This document shows, in pieces, positions 1,640 through 55,348 of a stretch of DNA of 64,000 bases. The notes under the pieces are model-generated. The model saw only the letters and a list, made by a program, of their open reading frames with translations, searched no databases and was not told the origin of the DNA. The position numbers and the translations under genes are program-made. Numbering within the stretch: position 1 is the stretch's first letter; the number at the start of each line of letters is the position of its first letter. This stretch comes from Candidatus Adlerbacteria bacterium (GTDB lineage: Bacteria; Patescibacteriota; Minisyncoccia; Phycocordibacterales; SBAW01). The stretch spans positions 239,825 to 303,824 of the forward strand of contig JAPLUW010000001.1 of the NCBI GenBank assembly GCA_026397405.1. The letters run 5' to 3'.

Positions 1640-1712
1640 GCGCCCATAGCTCAGTTGGTAGAGCGGCTCCCTTTTAAGGAGATGGTCCTTGGTTCGAATC
1701 CAAGTGGGCGCA
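1640..1712 (+). tRNA. tRNA-Lys (anticodon UUU)
   Basis: Cloverleaf by hand: acceptor GCGCCCA/TGGGCGC, D-arm GCTC..GAGC, anticodon loop CTTTTAA, T-arm CCTTG-GTTCGAATC-CAAGG, discriminator A. No CCA is encoded. Confidence 0.9.
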
Positions 1713-1713
1713 C

Positions 1714-1757
1714 AAAAGACAGAAACACCTCCCCTACGGGAGGTTTTTCTGTCTTTT
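1714..1757. terminator. Bidirectional rho-independent terminator after tRNA-Lys
   Basis: AAAAGACAGAAACACCTCCC-CTAC-GGGAGGTTTTTCTGTCTTTT is a stem of about 16 bp with one mismatch. It is flanked by an A-run and a T-run. Confidence 0.6.
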
Positions 1758-1853
1758 GTGCGAGGCAGAGCGTTGCTGTGCAATTGCACAGCCGCGAGCT
1801 GGGGTCGAGAAAATTCTGAGCGACGGCGAAGAATTATTCGTGACCACAAAAAT

Positions 1854-2417
1854 CTATAGCGTGAGCACAAACTGCTCGAGCAGCAGTTCCAAGTCCCCTG
1901 CTCCGCGGTGCGAGTCGTGGTACAAAGTTACGATTTCGCGAGAAAGCGCCGCATCTTTCATGTTCCGCGCTTTCCATGCCAAGAGGCCGGCAATTGCTTC
2001 GGGTTTTTCTCCGGCGCGGAGCGACTTTGCAACGCCGAGCCATAACTTTTTTTTATCGCGGTTCCCGAGCGCTGCAGCAACTCCAAACTGGTCAAACTTC
2101 CATTCAGCTGCTTTCTTTTTTTCTTGGACTTCGGCTTTCACTCCAGCTTTTGCCAGTGCATCGCTTGGTTTTTTAAGCAGTTTCTCTTCTTCAAAAATAA
2201 ATGTATGTGGCGAAAGGACAAGACCCTTTGCGAGCGAAATAAATTCATCTCCCCGCTCGCCACTAAGCGCGCCGGTTAGTACGAATGTTTGCGTGTCACC
2301 AAGGAGTGACGCAGTCGAGGCAAGCGTGCCAAGCTCCTCTGCAGTTATGTCTTCCCACCGCAGCTCTTCTGCACCCACCCCTACTCCAGCACTTTTCCCT
2401 ACAACAACGCGCATCAT
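1854..2417 (-). CDS. hypothetical protein, operonic with polA; possibly a DNA polymerase III delta-like helical domain
   Basis: 187 aa, stop/start overlap with polA. No diagnostic motif was recognised; the HolA-like call rests on weak resemblance only. Confidence 0.4.
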   Translation of the reverse strand: MMRVVVGKSAGVGVGAEELRWEDITAEELGTLASTASLLGDTQTFVLTGALSGERGDEFISLAKGLVLSPHTFIFEEEKLLKKPSDALAKAGVKAEVQEKKKAAEWKFDQFGVAAALGNRDKKKLWLGVAKSLRAGEKPEAIAGLLAWKARNMKDAALSREIVTLYHDSHRGAGDLELLLEQFVLTL

Positions 2418-13124: not shown

Positions 13125-14222
13125 CTACCTGTTCATCGGCATTGCGAGGTAGAAGAATGACTCGTCTCCTGCATCTTTAATAAGCATAGGCTTCCCTGGG
13201 CCGTTGGCGTGCAGGCGCACACTGTCACCCGAAATAGACTGCAGGCTATCTGCTAGGTAGCGGCCATTAAACGACATAGTTAGTTCGTCGCCAGAAATTG
13301 TTGCGCGCACGGTTGATGTTTGCTCGCCCACGTCGGGGTTGCGGGACGAAAGCAGTACTGACTTTTTTGCCGGCTCTATCGCAAGCGACACCTGAGAAAA
13401 TTTGTCCGCAAAAATAGAAAGAGACTTCAAGGCAGTTGAGACATCTTCACGCAGTACAACTGCCTCGGTTGAAAATGTCTTTGGAACAATTTGTCTATAG
13501 TTTGGAAACGCCGCGTCTATGATGCGGCTCGTGTAGTACACATTGCCCACATGGGTCGAGAGCTGGTTTTCATTAAAATATACTTCTGCCTCCCCACCCA
13601 CACTGTCGAGGATGCGCATCAACTCTGCTGCGTTGCGTGCAGGTACAAGCAACTGCGGTGTACTCCCCCCACCCCGCAGTGGTACGGTTTTTTCCGCAAG
13701 GCGGAACGAGTCTGTAGCAACTGCTGTAAGCTTTCCGCCTTCGCCAAACAACAAAACACTCTGTAATTCCGGTTTTACAGCTGAAAGTGACGCGCAGTAC
13801 GCAACACTGCGAATAGCCTTAGAAAGGTCGCTGCTTTTTGCAGTAAACGACTTCTCTGCCGAAACGCGTGGCAGTACAGGAAAGTCGTCATGCGGAATTG
13901 TTTTTATCGCAGCCGACGCACGCTCAGTTTCAACCTTAAACAATTCACCGACCAGAGACCCCGACACTACTTTGCCGCGCGCATTGTTTAAAAAGCCCGC
14001 AAAAATCGTTGCAGGAAGTGCCGCGATACCGTCTGCACTCACTTTTGCAGGCACGGTTATCTCAACTCCACATTCGAGGTTTGTTGCACGTAATGTAAGA
14101 CGGCCGTTTTCTGCAGCGAGTAGTATTGCAGAAAGTGCCGGTAGGTTTGCGCGGCGTTCAACAAAACGTGCAGCTGTTGCAACTGCCTGGGACAACTCGT
14201 CGGTATTAGTTTCAAATTTCAT
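13125..14222 (-). CDS. dnaN: DNA polymerase III beta sliding clamp
   Basis: 365 aa with a three-domain clamp-like sequence. It sits immediately downstream of dnaA. Confidence 0.9.
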   Translation of the reverse strand: MKFETNTDELSQAVATAARFVERRANLPALSAILLAAENGRLTLRATNLECGVEITVPAKVSADGIAALPATIFAGFLNNARGKVVSGSLVGELFKVETERASAAIKTIPHDDFPVLPRVSAEKSFTAKSSDLSKAIRSVAYCASLSAVKPELQSVLLFGEGGKLTAVATDSFRLAEKTVPLRGGGSTPQLLVPARNAAELMRILDSVGGEAEVYFNENQLSTHVGNVYYTSRIIDAAFPNYRQIVPKTFSTEAVVLREDVSTALKSLSIFADKFSQVSLAIEPAKKSVLLSSRNPDVGEQTSTVRATISGDELTMSFNGRYLADSLQSISGDSVRLHANGPGKPMLIKDAGDESFFYLAMPMNR

Positions 14223-14420
14223 ATATTTAAATAAAAGTTTTACCTACTACTAAGGGTGTGTATAGGTCGAACAAGTCTAATACATGTTGTCCTGCAAAGG
14301 TAGAAGTAGAATTTAAAAAACGAAATACGTGTTGGTATGTGGTAACAACTTCTGTTGATAACTTTATTTGTGCGTAGTTGTTCATGGTGTTTTCAGGTGT
14401 TGTTAGGTGTGTTATCCACA
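14223..14420. other. candidate oriC (dnaA-dnaN spacer)
   Basis: An AT-rich tract ATATATTTAAATAAAAG at the dnaN-proximal end and a perfect DnaA box TTATCCACA at 14412-14420. Weaker box-like 9-mers are also present. Confidence 0.55.
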
Positions 14421-15764
14421 TCATTTCAACATAAGGCGAATCTGGTTTAACTCGCTTGTGAGCACGCTGTCGCTACGTAGGTCGTTTTTTATTTTTTCGC
14501 ACGAGTGGATAACTGTTGTATGGTCGCGGCCGCCAAGCTTCTCCCCTATTGTGGGGAATGATATCTTAAAATCTTCGCGTAACAAAAACATAATCATCTG
14601 GCGAGGGCGCACCACTTCTTTACGGCGTGTTTTTTCGTAAATACTGTGTTCTTCGACCCCGTAGAAGGCAGAAATTGTGCGCACTACCTCCTGCACAGAG
14701 ACCGCCTTTTTTGTAGCGTTAGATGCGCCACGCAACAACATTTTTGCGTCGTTTATTGTTAGCGGCTCGCTGCCGCGTAGCTCGAATTGTATAAGGAGTA
14801 GATTTAATGCACCCTCCAGTTCACGGACGTTACCCTCAACCGCAGTTGCTAAGTATTCGAGCACTTCGTCGGGCAAAATAACGTTGTGTGCAGAGGCTTT
14901 TGTGCGGACAATAGCCAGACGTGACTCATGGTCGGGCGGGGTTACGGAAAGTATCATCCCCGCGCTAAAGCGCGACTTTAAGCGGTCTTCCAAGTTTTGT
15001 ATAACGTTTGGATGTTGGTCGGAAGAAAAAATCAGCTGTTTGTTACTGTCATGGAGGAAGTTAAACAAATGGAAAAATTCTTCTTTTGTTTTTTCCATCT
15101 TCGCCAAAAATTGCACGTCGTCCATGATAAGCAAGTCGTACTGGCGGTACTTTTCTTTAAACGACTGCACCTTCCCTGCTTGTAGTGATGACACATAGTC
15201 CATGGAAAACTTTTCCGAGGTTACGTACTGTACTTTTCGCTCAGGTGCGTTAACGCGGAAGTGGTTCCCTATCGCCTGTATAAGGTGTGTTTTACCCAAA
15301 CCGGTGGGGCCGTAGATAAGTAATGGGTTGTACGCGCTACCTGGCTTGCGTATAACGGCTTGTGCGGCTGCGTGCGCAAGTTCGTTAAAGGGCCCTACAA
15401 CAAACGACTGTAGGGTAAAACGCGGGTTCAGGTTTGTTTTTGCATGAACGTTTTCAAGCGGCAACTCCGACGGTGCTGCTGGTACGGTACGTGCATCTTC
15501 TACATTTTTTTTAGGTCCGCGTGAGATTATATATTCGACTGTGCGTACCGTGTCGGAAAGTCCGCGCAGTGAGCGTAAGATATCTTTATGAAATTTAGTC
15601 GAAAGCCAGTCGCGAGCAAATTGTGATGGTACACCAAGGTAGACTGTCCCCTCTTCGACTCGTACTACGTGTGTGTCTTTAAACCAGGTATTAAAATTTG
15701 GCTTGGAGATAGTAAGTTCAAGCTCAACAAGTGCGTTTTCCCAAAGTTCTTTCGTGGTGGTCAT
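14421..15764 (-). CDS. dnaA: chromosomal replication initiator DnaA
   Basis: AAA+ GPTGLGKTHL and the C-terminal DnaA signature (GGRDHTTVIHS) are present. The start was trimmed to MTTTKELWENA; the ORF-track start at 15911 would overlap rpmH. Confidence 0.95.
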   Translation of the reverse strand: MTTTKELWENALVELELTISKPNFNTWFKDTHVVRVEEGTVYLGVPSQFARDWLSTKFHKDILRSLRGLSDTVRTVEYIISRGPKKNVEDARTVPAAPSELPLENVHAKTNLNPRFTLQSFVVGPFNELAHAAAQAVIRKPGSAYNPLLIYGPTGLGKTHLIQAIGNHFRVNAPERKVQYVTSEKFSMDYVSSLQAGKVQSFKEKYRQYDLLIMDDVQFLAKMEKTKEEFFHLFNFLHDSNKQLIFSSDQHPNVIQNLEDRLKSRFSAGMILSVTPPDHESRLAIVRTKASAHNVILPDEVLEYLATAVEGNVRELEGALNLLLIQFELRGSEPLTINDAKMLLRGASNATKKAVSVQEVVRTISAFYGVEEHSIYEKTRRKEVVRPRQMIMFLLREDFKISFPTIGEKLGGRDHTTVIHSCEKIKNDLRSDSVLTSELNQIRLMLK

Positions 15765-15865
15765 GGAGGAGGTGGCCTTAAGGATACGCGGGATAGTCTG
15801 GCCCGTCAAAAAACGCGCTTTGTGCACAAGTTGTGGAGAAACTGGGTATAGAGTATATTTGACAC

Positions 15866-16000
15866 ATGTCGCAAACCTACCAGCCAAAAAAGCGTAAGCG
15901 CGCACGTGCACACGGGTTCCTTAAGCGTGCCCGCACCCCAGGGGGTCAGAAAACCGTTGCCCGCAGACGCCACAAAGGCCGCGCTCGTGTAACAGTCTAA
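15866..16000 (+). CDS. rpmH: 50S ribosomal protein L34
   Basis: A 44-aa [47 protein letters not shown], found by reading the sequence. It is below the ORF-track size cutoff. Confidence 0.85.
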
Positions 16001-51997: not shown

Positions 51998-53473
51998 TTA
52001 ATTAACAAAGTATTTCTTCTGAATTTCTTTAATACTCTCTTCCTCTAACTCCTCTTTTTTCTCTTTTCCTGCGTCCCCTATTGCACGTAAATCTTTATCT
52101 GAAAGTTTAACGAGTTCCAGTATTTTTGCTTCTAAATATTCTTTTGTATTTAACTTCGGGTCTTCCAACACCTCTTCAAGCAGTGCATGCAGGAGCCAAC
52201 CAATACGCGGGCCGGCTTTCTCCCCCGTTACCTCCATAATCCTCTTCCCGTCTATAGCGAGCATACCAACAGAAATTGGGTCACGCAGAGCCTCTTCTAT
52301 CATTGCCTGGTATTTGCGCAGACGGAAGGGCTGTTCTTTAGGCCTGCCAGTGCCTATACGGTCGCATATGCGTAGTTCGATGAGCTTTTCGATGTTATCC
52401 CTACCTACGTTGGTTATGATGCGTCTGACGGCAGATAACGTGATTTTATCGGGGTCAGAAAAGAACATGTGCCACCGGACCATCCGTTCGGCATTTTCTA
52501 TAGTTTCACGTGAAAATTTAAGCGCTTCCAAGGCCTTTTTTGTGATGCGCGCACCTACGACGTCGTGGCCGTGGAAGGTCCAGTCGTGCTTTTCGTCTGA
52601 CCAACGACGGCTCGCAGGCTTGCCTATGTCATGAAACAAGGCGGCTAGGCGTACTTCGAAGCTCCAGTTTTTGTCAGCTGCGTGCTGCAGAGCGCGTATG
52701 TTGTGTTCAAACACGTCAAAGCTGTGGGCCTGGTTTTGCTCTACCCCTATCCCCTTTTCCAAGTCTGGAGCGATATATCCTAAAATTCCTATACTTTGAG
52801 CCAAAATAATAGCGTTCATCGGCTTGGCTGAGTTTAAAATACGCACAAATTCGTCGCGGATACGTTCTTTTGAAATTTTGCCCAGCTGGGAGGCACATTT
52901 TTGCATTGCGGCCTTTGTTTCAGCCTCAATTGTAAAGCCTAACTCTGCCGAAATACGTATTGCACGCATAATACGCAACGCATCTTCGGCAAAACGCTCC
53001 TCTGGCTCCCCTACGGCGCGCACCACGCCTGCGGCTGTGTCCTTTATGCCGCCATAAAGGTCAAGAAGCTTTTTTTTAGCTGGGTCGTACGCCATCGCAT
53101 TGATGGTAAAGTCGCGGCGCTTAAGGTCATCTTCGATATGTTTGCTAAAAATAACGTTGTCAGGCCTGCGAGCGTCGCTATACTTCCCTTCTAGGCGGTA
53201 CGGCGTTGCTTCGACAATCTTTACATTTTCGTTTGTAGCGTCGTCATTTACGATACCGACAGTGCCAAATTCGTTGGTATAGAAGGTGTTTTCGAACAAA
53301 CTCTGGATTTCTTCCGGGTTGGCGTTGGTAGTTATGTCCCAGTCTTTAGGCGTGCGGCCAAGCAACAGGTCGCGCACGCACCCTCCTACTATCCAGACCT
53401 CGAAGCCGGCCTTGGTAAACGTTTCGGTTATTCGTGAAACCTCCGCGGGTATTTGGTCTTCGAGGAGTTGCAT
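51998..53473 (-). CDS. cca: CCA tRNA nucleotidyltransferase with HD domain
   Basis: GGCVRDLLLG, DxD and the HD motif FHDIGK. Confidence 0.9.
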   Translation of the reverse strand: MQLLEDQIPAEVSRITETFTKAGFEVWIVGGCVRDLLLGRTPKDWDITTNANPEEIQSLFENTFYTNEFGTVGIVNDDATNENVKIVEATPYRLEGKYSDARRPDNVIFSKHIEDDLKRRDFTINAMAYDPAKKKLLDLYGGIKDTAAGVVRAVGEPEERFAEDALRIMRAIRISAELGFTIEAETKAAMQKCASQLGKISKERIRDEFVRILNSAKPMNAIILAQSIGILGYIAPDLEKGIGVEQNQAHSFDVFEHNIRALQHAADKNWSFEVRLAALFHDIGKPASRRWSDEKHDWTFHGHDVVGARITKKALEALKFSRETIENAERMVRWHMFFSDPDKITLSAVRRIITNVGRDNIEKLIELRICDRIGTGRPKEQPFRLRKYQAMIEEALRDPISVGMLAIDGKRIMEVTGEKAGPRIGWLLHALLEEVLEDPKLNTKEYLEAKILELVKLSDKDLRAIGDAGKEKKEELEEESIKEIQKKYFVN

Positions 53474-53499
53474 GGCAGAATTCTAACACGCCAGTAGGA

Positions 53500-53571
53500 G
53501 CTCCCGTGGTGAAATGGATATCATGTCTGCCTTCGAAGCAGCTGTTCCAGGTTCGAATCCTGGCGGGAGCA
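53500..53571 (+). tRNA. tRNA-Arg (anticodon TCG)
   Basis: Acceptor GCTCCCG/CGGGAGC, T-arm CCAGG-TTCGAAT-CCTGG, anticodon loop CTTCGAA, 4-nt variable loop. Confidence 0.85.
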
Positions 53572-53626
53572 CACGCGACGTGTGCCTAGACAAAAGTTTG
53601 TGATATAGTCTTCAGTGTTTGCGGAT

Positions 53627-53697
53627 GCGGATATGGTTTAGTGGTAGAACACATCCTTGCCAAGGATGAGACGGGAGTTCGATTCTCCCTATCCGCA
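53627..53697 (+). tRNA. tRNA-Gly (anticodon GCC)
   Basis: Acceptor GCGGATA/TATCCGC, anticodon stem CATCC/GGATG, loop TTGCCAA, T-arm GGGAG-TTCGATT-CTCCC. Confidence 0.9.
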
Positions 53698-53974
53698 CTA
53701 GGAACGACCAAAATGAAAGATTTCTTTCATTTTTAAGAGACGACGTGCGAAACAAGCTCTGCTTATCCGCACTAAGTACGATATAAGATAAAAGACGTCT
53801 ATGGTGTGGACAATAGATCTCTTGAAAAATAAAGACATATCCACTTTTCTGGGGATAACTATGGGGACAGGTGTATTAAAGACGTGTCTTTAAGTGGGTT
53901 TTATGGCTTATAATGGCATGTAGTGTTTCTAAGATGACACTTTATAGGTTATTTGGTTCACATGAAACAGTTTC

Positions 53975-54388
53975 ATGGAAAAGACTAAAAAGAGAGAAAT
54001 AGGCGACTTAGGCGAGGATATAGCCTCGAAATATCTTGAAAAGAGGGGATATATTGTCTTGGATAGGAACTACCTCAAACCCTGGGGCGAATTGGACATT
54101 GTTGCTCGTAAGGACAAAAAGCTCCATTTTATTGAGGTTAAGACCGTCCGCCGTGAGTCGGGACAGGTTTCACGTGAAGCAGGTGGGGATGTTACACGTG
54201 GCACAGTTAGGCCGGAAGAGAATATGCACAAAAAGAAAGTTATGAGGTTACACAGGGCCTTGCAGACGTATATGATGGAAAAGAAGGTGGGCGGGGAAGT
54301 AGAGTGGCAAATAGACCTTGCCTGCGTTTACTTGGATTTTTCGTCCAGGCGCGCTACAGTGGAGCTGTTCGAGAATATTATTCTATAA
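53975..54388 (+). CDS. YraN-family (UPF0102) putative endonuclease
   Basis: GDLGEDIASKYLEKRGYIVLDRNY...GELDIVARKD...HFIEVKT. Confidence 0.8.
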   Translation: MEKTKKREIGDLGEDIASKYLEKRGYIVLDRNYLKPWGELDIVARKDKKLHFIEVKTVRRESGQVSREAGGDVTRGTVRPEENMHKKKVMRLHRALQTYMMEKKVGGEVEWQIDLACVYLDFSSRRATVELFENIIL

Positions 54389-54439
54389 GTAGGGAAGCGG
54401 GGTATCGTATATCGGTAGTACGCTTGCTTTGGGAGCAAG

Positions 54440-55348
54440 ATGGCTCAGTTCGATTCTGAGTACCCCGACAAAATTAATCGTATGGAACGGCTAACTCTTG
54501 TAACAAAACCGTCCGACGGGTATGAACTACTCGACTCGGGTGGGGAAGAGAAGCTTGAGCGATTTGGCGATGTTGTGCTTCGCAGACCGGACCCGCAGGC
54601 GTTGTGGCCTAAAAAGTTAGGAGAGAGCGAATGGAATAAAGCCACAGGCACGTATGTGCGTGAGGGTGGGGAAGGTGGCAAATGGGTGGGGAAGCTGCCT
54701 ACAGAGTGGAAAATAAGTTTTGGAGGATTGCAATTTCTGGTCAAACCAACCTCGTTTAAGCACACAGGGTTGTTTCCTGAGCAGGAGTCAAATTGGGTTT
54801 GGACTGCTGAACAAATTTCTAAAGTTGGTAGGGAAGTCTCCGTTCTCAATCTCTTTGGTTACACAGGTGGTGCAACGCTTGCTGCGGCAAAAGCTGGAGC
54901 GCAGGTGACGCATGTAGATGCATCAAAGACAGCAGTTGCGTGGGCACGCGAAAATGCACAAGCGTCGGGGTTGGAAGAAGCACCTATACGGTGGATTACT
55001 GAAGACGTGCTGTTGTTTGTCCGCCGCGAAATTGCACGTGGGAAGAAGTATGACGGCATTATCATGGACCCGCCAGCATTTGGGCACGGGCCAAAAAACG
55101 AAATTTGGAAGATAGAAGAGAATTTGATTGAACTTATAGACCTCTGCGGCCAACTTTTGTCGGACCAACCACTCTTCTTTTTGGTAAACGGCTACGCGGC
55201 AGGATATTCGCCTTTGGCGTTTGCATACAACTTGGAGCAATTTGAAAAAAAGTACGGCGGGGCACTAGAATATGGCGATTTAGGGATTGAGGAGCAGGGA
55301 AGTGGCCGCATACTTCCTGCTGGTATTTTTGCTCGGTGGAAAAAGTAG
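54440..55348 (+). CDS. class I SAM-dependent RNA methyltransferase (RlmI/RlmK-like)
   Basis: LNLFGYTGGATLAAAKAGA and DPPAFG motifs. Confidence 0.75.
   Translation: MAQFDSEYPDKINRMERLTLVTKPSDGYELLDSGGEEKLERFGDVVLRRPDPQALWPKKLGESEWNKATGTYVREGGEGGKWVGKLPTEWKISFGGLQFLVKPTSFKHTGLFPEQESNWVWTAEQISKVGREVSVLNLFGYTGGATLAAAKAGAQVTHVDASKTAVAWARENAQASGLEEAPIRWITEDVLLFVRREIARGKKYDGIIMDPPAFGHGPKNEIWKIEENLIELIDLCGQLLSDQPLFFLVNGYAAGYSPLAFAYNLEQFEKKYGGALEYGDLGIEEQGSGRILPAGIFARWKK

What the first reader, a model, noticed from the sequence alone, without database searches (positions are those of the whole stretch)
53689..53892. Duplicated tRNA-Gly(GCC) 3' end and repeated AAAGAC motifs downstream, a possible integration scar
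The last 11 nt of tRNA-Gly (TATCCGCACTA, 53689-53699) recur 52 bp downstream at 53751-53761. This is unlikely by chance in 64 kb. Duplication of a tRNA 3' end is the signature of integrase-mediated insertion at a tRNA attB. The short spacing suggests that the element has since been lost, leaving attL/attR remnants, or that it was tiny. Within the spacer there is a terminator-like hairpin AATGAAAGA-TTTC-TTTCATTT. Further downstream the motif AAAGAC recurs at 53791, 53830 and 53877. The last copy sits inside a perfect 18-bp palindrome TTAAAGACGTGTCTTTAA (53875-53892), about 85 bp upstream of yraN. That palindrome is a candidate operator.
Basis: seen in the sequence. Interest (0 to 1): 0.5.

Follow-up and report, generated by a model that had tools for sequence, protein, structure and literature searches.

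The report
Conserved trailer module after tRNA-Gly
The repeated tRNA-Gly end is real, but it is not a leftover phage attachment site: it is one arm of a roughly 75-base non-coding module that follows tRNA-Gly genes in scattered lineages of these tiny-genome (CPR) bacteria, has not been described, and mimics the tRNA's own acceptor stem.

Summary
The window comes from a Candidatus Adlerbacteria (Paceibacterota, CPR) genome. The repeat extends to 24 nt at 83% identity, or 38 columns with one gap (0 of 2000 shuffles reach its score).

I found no integrase, no occupied site in relatives and no attP in viral contigs. The 74-nt insert is instead a member of a conserved module found after tRNA-Gly genes in about 20 distant Paceibacterota loci. 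Its parts are a TAGGAACGA linker, a covarying hairpin, a GAGNGACGACG box, an inverted copy (X') of the tRNA 3' end and a direct copy (X). X' and X form an acceptor-stem-like hairpin.

The window is the only one of 12 sampled members of its clade that carries the module. Its 97% relative has the tRNA-Gly gene inverted and has no repeat. A recent small insertion is therefore likely, but not an integrase scar. The most likely role is a cis-acting RNA element of the tRNA-Gly transcript. That role is inferred, not shown.

The AAAGAC boxes and the 8+2+8 palindrome belong to a conserved block of DnaA boxes and promoter-like sequence upstream of yraN. A larger structured RNA absent from Rfam follows many tRNA genes in these genomes, including tRNA-Lys at window 1750-1859.

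The parts
53500..53572 (+). tRNA-Arg(TCG). Its last bases form a small hairpin with the trailer: GCACAC 53569-53574, loop GCGAC, GTGTGC 53580-53585.
   Evidence: ARAGORN; Rfam tRNA; sequence
53627..53698 (+). tRNA-Gly(GCC). CCA is not encoded. The leader carries an extra TGCGGAT (53620-53626) just before the 5' acceptor strand.
   Evidence: ARAGORN; Rfam 74.4 bits; repeats I6/I7
53684..53707 (+). Repeat copy 1 (X): the 3' strand of the T stem, the acceptor 3' strand, the discriminator and 10 nt of trailer. The exact core is 53690-53700.
53699..53709 (+). Linker TAGGAACGACC, which matches the family consensus TAGGAACGAG(Y)GA.
   Evidence: alignment A5; metagenome instances
53710..53733 (+). Hairpin Pa: AAAATGAAAGA-TT-TCTTTCATTTT, followed by T. 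It is AU-rich and terminator-like.
   Evidence: I3; -8.2 kcal/mol, z = -4.2; in the family all 11 pairs show compensatory changes and 91% of cells are paired
53737..53749 (+). Conserved box GAGACGACGTGCG (family consensus GAGNGACGACGYGCG). Its last 5 nt begin X'.
53745..53772 (+). Hairpin Pb. X' (GTGCG 53745-53749, a decayed GTGCGGATAAG) pairs with CGCAC (53768-53772) of the repeat copy. An inner stem pairs AAGC 53754-53757 with GCTT 53761-53764. The hairpin mimics the tRNA acceptor stem.
   Evidence: -9.1 kcal/mol, z = -3.0; family pair counts
53758..53781 (+). Repeat copy 2 (X copy). The exact core is 53764-53774. It is followed by TAAGTACGA.
   Evidence: the trailer TAAGT also follows the tRNA in L085 and the X copy in L121
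53791..53836 (+). Two (T)AAAGAC boxes, at 53791-53796 and 53831-53836, flanking a DnaA-box-like TGTGGACAA at 53805-53813.
   Evidence: partly conserved in clade relatives; AARG(G)AC boxes are enriched 5.5-fold upstream of yraN
53850..53858 (-). DnaA-box-like TTATCCCCA. Relatives have a perfect TGTGGATAA at the same place.
53876..53893 (.). 8+2+8 palindrome TTAAAGAC-GT-GTCTTTAA, a candidate protein-binding site overlapping the -35 region of the presumed yraN promoter.
   Evidence: conserved in the clade with an AC centre or no spacer; the window's 18-mer is the exact reverse complement of L085's
53909..53914 (+). TATAAT, the presumed -10 of yraN. This rests on sequence inspection only; the promoter scan did not call it.
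   Evidence: sequence; one search lists no promoter here
53975..54388 (+). yraN (UPF0102) gene.
   Evidence: Pfam PF02021, E = 3e-18

Best explanation
**What it is (shown).** The second TATCCGCACTA is the 3' arm of a conserved non-coding "tRNA-Gly trailer module" of about 75 nt. After the tRNA end (X) the module has these parts, in order:
1. a purine-rich linker, UAGGAACGA;
2. a hairpin, Pa, whose sequence changes freely between lineages while its pairing is kept;
3. a conserved box, GAGNGACGACG;
4. an inverted copy of the tRNA 3' end (X');
5. a short loop;
6. a direct copy of the tRNA 3' end (X copy).

X' and the X copy form a hairpin, Pb, whose lower 7-9 base pairs repeat the tRNA's own acceptor stem plus the discriminator pair.

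**How it got here (inferred by parsimony).** The window's lineage gained the module as a 74-nt insertion exactly at the tRNA 3' boundary, after it split from its closest sampled relative. X' has since partly decayed.

**How it most likely works (inferred, not shown).** It acts in cis on the tRNA-Gly primary transcript. Pa pauses or terminates transcription and defines the 3' end. In read-through transcripts X' could invade the tRNA's acceptor 3' strand. The X copy captures X' in Pb, an acceptor-stem-like microhelix that could also serve as a cleavage signal of the RNase P or RNase Z type. The two folds are nearly isoenergetic in the window.

**How it spreads.** This is not established. Possibilities are recombination anchored on the conserved tRNA, or a copying process templated by the target.
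For: **The repeat is not chance.** It spans 38 columns, and 0 of 2000 shuffles reach its score.

**The architecture and boxes recur in other lineages.**
- A single-sequence nhmmer search from the window finds L068 (E = 2e-7), L025, L012, L060 and L046.
- All 12 of 12 metagenome matches to CCGCACTAGGAACN{15,45}GACGACGYGCG show the whole module after tRNA-Gly(GCC or CCC), or after the X copy of another module.
- An HMM of the family finds about 20 modules.

**The structure is conserved.**
- In Pa all 11 pairs show compensatory changes and 91% of cells are paired.
- For Pa and Pb together 82.7% of cells are paired, against 68.3% in shuffles and 41-56% when partners are slid.

**X' and the X copy follow the resident tRNA.** The tRNA's 5:68 pair is A:U in the window, L125 and L068 and G:C in the others. 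X' and the X copy match it in 15 of 16 instances.

**The module is conserved where other intergenic DNA is not.** Module plus tRNA aligns at 75-79% over 100-157 nt with loci whose coding DNA aligns at only 64-75%.

**It was gained in this lineage.**
- It is absent from L085/L086, L001, L003, L087, L089, L002, L004-L007 and L126.
- The module HMM finds it next to tRNA-Gly(GCC) in 7 of about 66 loci, spread over at least 5 clades. The window is one of the 7, and these seven sequences were part of the alignment the HMM was built from.

**Alternative folds are close in energy.** The canonical fold is -43.2 kcal/mol and the fold with X:X' pairing is -45.5 kcal/mol.

**A parallel exists in the same genomes.** A 115-nt structured core with the same X'...X logic lies downstream of a tRNA gene on the same strand in 35 of 42 hits, and it contains a conserved G.U pair.
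Against: - No expression or RNA-end data exist, so the RNA-level role is inference.
- In Pa the counts of G.U cells (6) and A.C cells (7) are similar. The structure therefore does not identify the transcribed strand. DNA-level palindrome formation could imitate covariation.
- Only about half of the Pa hairpins are followed by a U-rich run, judged by inspection of A5. Termination cannot be the general role.
- Only about 10% of tRNA-Gly(GCC) genes carry the module, so it is dispensable.
- A processing signal would not need to be identical to the neighbouring tRNA. That identity fits target-templated insertion or gene conversion better.
- The window's Pb is weakened, with only 5+4 base pairs.
Confidence: 0.5

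Rival explanations
1. It is a miniature, non-autonomous mobile insertion that targets the 3' end of tRNA-Gly genes. It copies the target end on insertion, which would explain why its arms match the resident tRNA. An enzyme encoded elsewhere would mobilise it.
For: - Its distribution is patchy, and parsimony favours a single gain in the window's lineage.
- Modules occur stacked in tandem (L115/L118, L119, L121, and a large module followed by a small one in L123).
- The repeat flanks the insert exactly at the tRNA boundary. The trailer TAAGT after the X copy equals the trailer of the module-free tRNA in L085.
- In L079 two large cores that are 85% identical sit after two different tRNA-Gly genes. 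Each has arms matched to its own tRNA's T-loop, CGATT in one and CAATT in the other.
Against: - There is only one copy per locus and no multi-copy family within a genome.
- No transposase or integrase is associated with it.
- It has no terminal inverted repeats of its own.
- The repeat length varies from 7 to 21 nt.
- Pa sequences differ completely between lineages while keeping their pairing. That indicates long residence under constraint rather than recent spread.
- Related hosts carry related variants: L041 and L060 share the bulged X', and L021 and L068 share cores. This fits vertical descent.
Confidence: 0.25
2. It is the relic of a tandem second tRNA-Gly gene whose body was deleted. The 5' acceptor strand (X') and the 3' acceptor strand (X) remain as a minihelix pseudogene. 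GACGACG would be the old 5' leader and Pa the old intergenic terminator.
For: - X' has the same sequence as a tRNA-Gly 5' acceptor strand.
- The start-to-start spacing of 74 nt is close to the length of a tRNA.
- In L077 a GAGGATGTGCGGACT leader lies directly before an intact tRNA-Gly.
Against: - No locus shows the intact tandem gene pair with this spacer.
- Pb stems extend to 10-12 base pairs using bases that are not tRNA sequence (AAG/CTT, ATG/CAT), which looks like a maintained hairpin.
- X' also pairs with the discriminator and the first trailer base, which a tRNA 5' end does not do.
- The family is conserved across distant lineages, which is unexpected for a pseudogene.
Confidence: 0.1
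3. It is a classical attL/attR scar of an integrase-mediated element, such as a prophage or an integrative element, whose interior was later deleted.
For: There is a direct repeat of the tRNA 3' end with imperfect flanks, as in attP/attB pairs.
Against: - No relative has an occupied site.
- The 17 viral-contig matches to the junction 15-mer are all chance hits inside ORFs. The 21-mer of the tRNA end matches only whole tRNA genes in jumbo-phage tRNA arrays.
- The same breakpoints and internal boxes recur in about 20 independent loci. Random internal deletions would not reproduce them.
- An inverted copy of the tRNA end is present.
- The Phage_integrase-family genes in the relatives' loci lie about 4-5 kb away, on the far side of cca.
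Confidence: 0.04
4. The second copy is a DnaA box (TTATCCGCA against the consensus TTATCCACA). It would belong to the DnaA-box cluster upstream of yraN and resemble the tRNA end only by coincidence.
For: - Three of the window's 21 DnaA-box-like sites lie within 53763-53858.
- DnaA boxes are enriched 18-fold upstream of yraN across the class.
Against: - The match to the tRNA extends over 24-38 nt.
- In most lineages the X copy is TTACCCGCA, which has 2 mismatches to the DnaA box.
- The X copy is oriented opposite to the conserved boxes.
Confidence: 0.02

Closest known systems
attL/attR duplications made by tyrosine integrases at tRNA gene 3' ends (prophages, genomic islands). Comparison from general knowledge.
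   Same: A direct repeat of the tRNA 3' end brackets inserted DNA, and the tRNA gene stays intact.
   Different: The insert is only 63 nt. There is no integrase, no occupied site and no attP. The repeat length varies. An inverted copy of the tRNA end and conserved internal boxes are present.
t-elements and tRNA-like structures used as RNA-processing signals. Examples are plant mitochondrial t-elements (PMC1920247, listed; only its title and the start of its abstract were read) and mascRNA downstream of MALAT1 (general knowledge).
   Same: An acceptor-stem-like helix lies next to another transcript segment, where RNase P or RNase Z could cut.
   Different: Pb is only a microhelix without a T arm. 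It sits behind a genuine tRNA and copies that tRNA's own acceptor sequence. Cleavage has not been tested.
Intrinsic terminators and functional 3' external transcribed spacers of bacterial tRNA operons, such as 3'ETS-leuZ. Comparison from general knowledge.
   Same: It lies in a tRNA trailer. In the window Pa is a hairpin followed by a run of T.
   Different: The terminator scan did not call Pa, because it has too few G-C pairs. About half of the family's Pa hairpins lack a U tract. The second hairpin and the conserved purine-rich boxes are not parts of a terminator.
MITEs, and REP/BIME-type small palindromic intergenic elements. Comparison from general knowledge.
   Same: It is small, non-coding, hairpin-rich and patchily distributed.
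   Different: It is not multi-copy within a genome, has no terminal inverted repeats of its own, and is strictly tied to tRNA 3' ends on the tRNA strand.
The large tRNA-trailer RNA found here (model R1), for example at window 1750-1859.
   Same: It has the same logic: the tRNA end X, then an inverted copy X', then a direct copy X. It has the same genomic position and strand, and a related GAGCGACGRCG box in the P4 loop.
   Different: It has a conserved core of about 90 nt, with 21 of 21 pairs covarying. The core is absent from the window's Gly trailer.

Membership tests
Integrase att-site scar at a tRNA gene | A direct repeat of the tRNA 3' end flanks the inserted DNA | tested here: met
   53690-53700 and 53764-53774 are identical; 24 nt match at 83%
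Integrase att-site scar at a tRNA gene | An integrase or element genes, or their remnants, lie between or beside the repeats | tested here: not met
   The copies are separated by 63 nt with no ORF. The neighbouring genes are cca, yraN and a methyltransferase.
Integrase att-site scar at a tRNA gene | The same site is occupied by a larger element in some relatives | tested here: not met
   Synteny tRNA-Arg / tRNA-Gly / yraN / tRNA-Pro is conserved. The Gly-to-Pro distance is 599-743 nt in the nearest relatives. In the first 20 loci scanned the only large gaps, 1.2-1.6 kb in L008, L012, L018 and L019, lie between tRNA-Arg and tRNA-Gly, and their content was not examined.
Integrase att-site scar at a tRNA gene | A matching attP exists in phage or element DNA | tested here: not met
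   Viral-contig scans gave only chance hits inside ORFs or complete phage tRNA genes. Plasmids and integrative elements were not searched.
Intrinsic (Rho-independent) terminator | A G+C-rich hairpin followed by a U tract | tested here: inconclusive
   The window's Pa is followed by TTTTT but has only 2 G-C pairs and is not called by the scan. About half of the family members lack a U tract.
Any curated RNA family (Rfam 15) | A match at or above the family's gathering score | tested here: not met
   At gathering score the whole window and five related loci gave only tRNA hits. The permissive E-value scans covered large-module regions only (L080 1540-1800 and window 1700-1900) and gave spurious miRNA-hairpin matches. 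The Gly trailer at 53699-53781 was searched at gathering score only.
MITE | Terminal inverted repeats of its own, a fixed-length target duplication, and many copies per genome | tested here: not met
   There is one copy in 64 kb. The repeat is 7-21 nt long. The arms are target sequence, not element sequence.
tRNA-Gly trailer module (family defined here) | The order X, TAGGAACGA linker, hairpin, GAGNGACGACG box, X', loop, X copy, on the tRNA strand immediately 3' of a tRNA-Gly or of another X copy | tested here: met
   All parts are present at 53684-53781. The HMM scores the window at 47.8 bits, but the window is in the seed alignment. An independent single-sequence search recovers L068, L025 and L012.
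tRNA-like processing element (t-element) | Cleavage by RNase P or RNase Z at the acceptor-like helix | not testable with these tools
   Only the helix itself is shown.

The most novel reading that the evidence does not exclude
Paceibacterota may carry an undescribed class of cis-acting tRNA-trailer RNAs built on a three-partner pairing switch. The partners are the tRNA's own acceptor/T-arm 3' strand, an anti-strand (X') and a decoy copy (X). The switch would gate folding or processing of the upstream tRNA. The window's tRNA-Gly module would be the minimal form. The 115-nt version, with its conserved core, would sense a protein or ligand, giving riboswitch-like control of tRNA maturation. Alternatively, the arms are rewritten from the target at each insertion, which would mean a new target-templated way for small RNA genes to spread.
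Probability: 0.2. Interest if true: 0.85.

Novelty: new variant of a known kind. Interest (0 to 1): 0.55.

Why it matters
**Annotation.** Short duplications of tRNA ends are routinely read as footprints of integrative elements. Here that reading would be wrong, because the duplication is a built-in part of a conserved small module.

**If the module is functional RNA.** CPR bacteria, which have very few regulators and RNases, would be attaching acceptor-stem mimics and anti-acceptor strands to their tRNA genes. That would be an unexplored layer of control or processing of tRNA maturation.

**A lead beyond the finding.** The same analysis revealed a roughly 115-nt structured RNA that is not in Rfam and follows about one in seven of the sampled tRNA genes. 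It is a concrete target for experiments.

**Genome dynamics.** The locus also shows that tRNA genes in these genomes change orientation in place between close relatives. This bears on how such small genomes rearrange.

Tried and rejected
- **Chance.** Rejected by local alignment against shuffles.
- **Decayed tandem tRNA copy in the window.** The 48 nt before the second repeat show no similarity to the tRNA body. The best alignment covers only 53684-53720.
- **Phage attP.** Three viral-contig scans (the junction 15-mer, the 21-mer of the tRNA end, and the large-core 18-mer) gave only chance or irrelevant hits.
- **Known RNA family.** Rfam gave nothing for the whole window at gathering score. 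Permissive scans of two large-module regions gave only spurious hairpin hits.
- **Mini-module as a deletion form of the large core.** The R1 model finds no trace of the core in 53400-54600 with filters off.
- **The yraN-upstream region as oriC.** dnaA (14421-15911) and dnaN (13125-14222) lie 38 kb away. They have their own DnaA boxes at 14353-14512, and the cumulative GC-skew minimum is at 12-14 kb. The yraN cluster is therefore a secondary DnaA-box cluster.
- **Import of the whole tRNA-plus-module cassette by recombination.** The window's tRNA and promoter are of the clade's own type, so only the 74 nt are new.
- **Anti-acceptor sequences as a universal feature of tRNA trailers here.** A 7-mer test shows enrichment (17 inverted and 29 direct hits of 248 tRNAs, against 2 and 6 in control regions), but only 7-12% of tRNA genes have them.
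- **More close relatives.** Two of the four extra look-ups returned no DNA.
- **Literature.** Three full-text searches found no description of such modules, and a fourth query was rejected for syntax. The paper on Patescibacteria tRNA introns concerns group I introns in the anticodon loop.

Full report
**Source and context.** The window comes from a Candidatus Adlerbacteria genome (Paceibacterota/Parcubacteria, CPR). The CCA-adding enzyme at 51998-53473(-) has its best matches in Adlerbacteria MAGs. Identical DNA occurs in four public samples. The gene order at the locus is cca(-), tRNA-Arg(TCG) 53500-53572, tRNA-Gly(GCC) 53627-53698, yraN 53975-54388, tRNA-Pro 54398-54469 and an RlmI-like methyltransferase. 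This order is conserved across the class.

**Observation.**
- TATCCGCACTA lies at 53690-53700 and 53764-53774, 74 nt start to start.
- Recurrence of the 11-mer alone is not impressive when one mismatch is allowed, since 16 of 100 shuffles gave at least two matches.
- The similarity extends further: 24 nt at 83% identity, or 38 columns with one gap. No shuffle out of 2000 reaches that score.
- The spacer hairpin is real, with 11-nt perfect arms at 53710-53720 and 53723-53733. It folds at -8.2 kcal/mol with z = -4.2.
- The palindrome at 53876-53893 has 8-nt arms around a GT centre and is not perfect.
- AAAGAC lies at 53791, 53831 and 53878.

**Relatives.**
- The closest sampled relative has a CCA enzyme 97% identical, and its flanking DNA is 86-91% identical (L085/L086).
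- It carries the same tRNA-Gly, 74 of 74 nt identical, but on the opposite strand together with its promoter. It has no second copy of the tRNA end.
- The other ten sampled clade members, at 70-83% CCA-enzyme identity, all lack the repeat. Those with the window's tRNA-Gly orientation include L001, L003, L087 and L126. In L002 and L089 both tRNA-Arg and tRNA-Gly are inverted.
- No related locus has a larger element at this site.
- Viral contigs hold no attP-like fragment.

**The spacer is a conserved module, not debris.**
- Distant Paceibacterota, about 60% identical in the CCA enzyme, have the same arrangement after tRNA-Gly. After the tRNA end X come TAGGAACGAG(Y)GA, a hairpin, (C)CGAG(N)GACGACG(Y)GCGG, a short loop and (T)TAYCCGCAC. 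This is seen in L012, L025, L041, L046, L060 and L068.
- A metagenome scan for CCGCACTAGGAACN{15,45}GACGACGYGCG returned 12 loci. All 12 show the complete module after tRNA-Gly(GCC or CCC) or after the terminal X copy of another module.
- In a 16-sequence alignment, all 11 pairs of the hairpin Pa show compensatory changes and 91% of cells are paired.
- GTGCGG... is the reverse complement (X') of the tRNA 3' end. It pairs with the downstream copy to form the hairpin Pb, in which 74% of cells are paired. It could equally pair with the tRNA's own end, where 78% of cells are paired.
- X' and the X copy follow the resident tRNA's 5:68 pair. It is A:U in the window, L125 and L068 and G:C elsewhere, and the match holds in 15 of 16 instances.
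- Module plus tRNA aligns at 75-79% with loci whose coding DNA aligns at only 64-75%.
- The window's copy has an intact linker, Pa and box, but a partly decayed X'. Pb keeps 5+4 base pairs and folds at -9.1 kcal/mol.

**Distribution.**
- In the cca-anchored genome set the module HMM finds the module next to tRNA-Gly(GCC) in 7 of about 66 loci, in at least five separate clades. The window is one of the 7, and these seven sequences were in the alignment the HMM was built from.
- The window is the only carrier among the 12 sampled members of its clade. A single gain of 74 nt is therefore more parsimonious than three or more losses.
- The base after the X copy starts TAAGT. The same trailer follows the module-free tRNA in L085 and the X copy in L121. 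This fits an insertion between ...CCGCAC and TAAGT.
- Related hosts carry related module variants, and Pa has diverged while keeping its pairing. The family is therefore old and at least partly inherited vertically.

**A larger relative of the module.**
- Many tRNA genes in these genomes are followed, on the same strand, by a longer element. It consists of X, a long hairpin, X', GGAGAATCGAAAG-SCGGAGC, a hairpin, CGAG-S-CGGGGTCGCGG, a hairpin, GTGACC and an X copy.
- A covariance model built from 16 copies finds 42 good hits in 1.0 Mb. Of these, 35 lie 13-130 nt downstream of a tRNA, or up to 264 nt where modules are stacked. The tRNAs are Gly-GCC (13), Arg-UCG (13), Gly-UCC (8) and Lys (1).
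- All 21 pairs show compensatory changes, and 92.9% of cells are paired against 65% in shuffles. One G.U pair is conserved in 34 of 47 sequences, which marks the tRNA-sense strand as the structured one. The alignment was fitted to the model, so these counts lean towards the structure.
- One copy follows tRNA-Lys at window 1750-1859 (78 bits).
- Rfam has no family for it.
- In L079 two cores that are 85% identical follow two different tRNA-Gly genes, and each has arms matched to its own tRNA's T-loop.
- The core is absent from the window's Gly trailer. The two module types share logic and a GAGCGACGRCG box, but they are distinct.

**Mechanism.**
- Shown: the architecture, its conservation, the covariation in Pa, the mimicry of the acceptor stem, and the lineage-specific presence.
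- Inferred: the module acts on the tRNA-Gly transcript. Pa would be a weak terminator or 3'-end hairpin. X' would be a strand able to invade the tRNA acceptor 3' strand. The X copy would be a decoy that captures X' in a microhelix, which may also be a cleavage site for RNase P or RNase Z.
- In the window the canonical fold (cloverleaf plus Pa plus Pb, -43.2 kcal/mol) and the alternative fold (X:X' paired, and the 5' acceptor strand paired with the distal X; -45.5 kcal/mol) are nearly equal.
- Main rivals: a target-templated miniature mobile insertion, and a collapsed tandem tRNA gene.
- The classical integrase scar is the least supported rival.

**Second half of the finding.**
- The AAAGAC boxes and the palindrome lie in a block conserved upstream of yraN across the class. 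The block holds two or three co-oriented DnaA boxes (TGTGGATAA). Their density is 5.8 per kb, against 0.32 per kb background, and 54 of 56 loci have at least one.
- AARG(G)AC boxes are enriched 5.5-fold in the same region.
- In the Adlerbacteria clade the palindrome AAAGAC-(0 or 2 nt)-GTCTTT is conserved. It lies just upstream of a TATAAT at 53909-53914.
- A protein-binding site is therefore plausible.
- The chromosomal origin is more likely at the dnaA-dnaN spacer near 14.3 kb.

**Verdict.** The integrase-scar interpretation is not supported, although a tiny insertion flanked by copies of the tRNA end is. The feature is a member of an undescribed conserved tRNA-trailer module family whose function is not established.

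Noticed in passing
window 1714-1859 (+), just after tRNA-Lys 1640-1713: A 26-bp hairpin starts inside the tRNA-Lys 3' end (GCGCACAAAAGACAG...CTGTCTTTTGTGCG). A structured core of about 110 nt follows (R1 hit 1750-1859, 78 bits, E = 3e-25). The same element follows tRNA-Gly and tRNA-Arg genes in many Paceibacterota: 35 of 42 hits lie downstream of a tRNA on the same strand, and all 21 pairs covary. It is not in Rfam.
   Followed up: partly
window 53627-53698 compared with L085 3821-3892, L089, L002 and about 20 other loci: tRNA-Gly and tRNA-Arg genes change orientation in place between close relatives, and the gene order is kept. Relative to cca, Gly(GCC) is co-oriented in about 22 sampled loci and divergent in the rest. 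The closest sampled relative (CCA enzyme 97% identical) has the same 74 nt on the other strand, together with the promoter. The mechanism is unknown.
   Followed up: partly
window 53876-53893 compared with L085; L119 compared with L121 (Pa loop): The centres of small palindromes are flipped between relatives. The window has TTAAAGAC-GT-GTCTTTAA and L085 has ...AC..., its exact reverse complement. The Pa loop is GAAGA in L119 and TCTTT in L121. This suggests frequent hairpin-loop inversions in these genomes.
   Followed up: no
window 53800-53975 and the 300 nt upstream of yraN in 56 loci: A conserved cluster of co-oriented DnaA boxes (TGTGGATAA) lies upstream of yraN. Its density is 18 times the background, and it is present in 54 of 56 loci. 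It is followed by AAAGGAC boxes and by GTTTCAYRTGAAAC-type palindromes just before the start codon. It may be a DnaA-controlled promoter or a replication-related site away from dnaA.
   Followed up: partly
window 13125-15911 and 14353-14512: dnaA is at 14421-15911(-) and dnaN at 13125-14222(-). Three DnaA boxes, one perfect at 14412, lie around their junction, and the cumulative GC-skew minimum is at 12-14 kb. This is the probable oriC.
   Followed up: partly
window 53569-53585 and 53620-53626: The last bases of tRNA-Arg form a 6-bp hairpin with its trailer (GCACAC-GCGAC-GTGTGC), and the CGCGACGTGTGC there resembles the GACGACGTGCG box of the Gly module. Separately, the tRNA-Gly leader carries an extra TGCGGAT directly before the 5' acceptor strand GCGGATA. 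L077 has a similar leader, GAGGATGTGCGGACT.
   Followed up: no
L082 position 1 (sample SRR20698644): One assembly contig of the same strain starts inside tRNA-Gly, at AAGGATGAGACG. Co-occurring strains may have different flanks at this tRNA.
   Followed up: no
L087 and L001, about 22 nt after tRNA-Gly: Module-free clade relatives have ...CTCAAAGCCCGCAC... shortly after the tRNA. This may be a decayed X copy from an older module, but the match is weak (a 6-mer).
   Followed up: no
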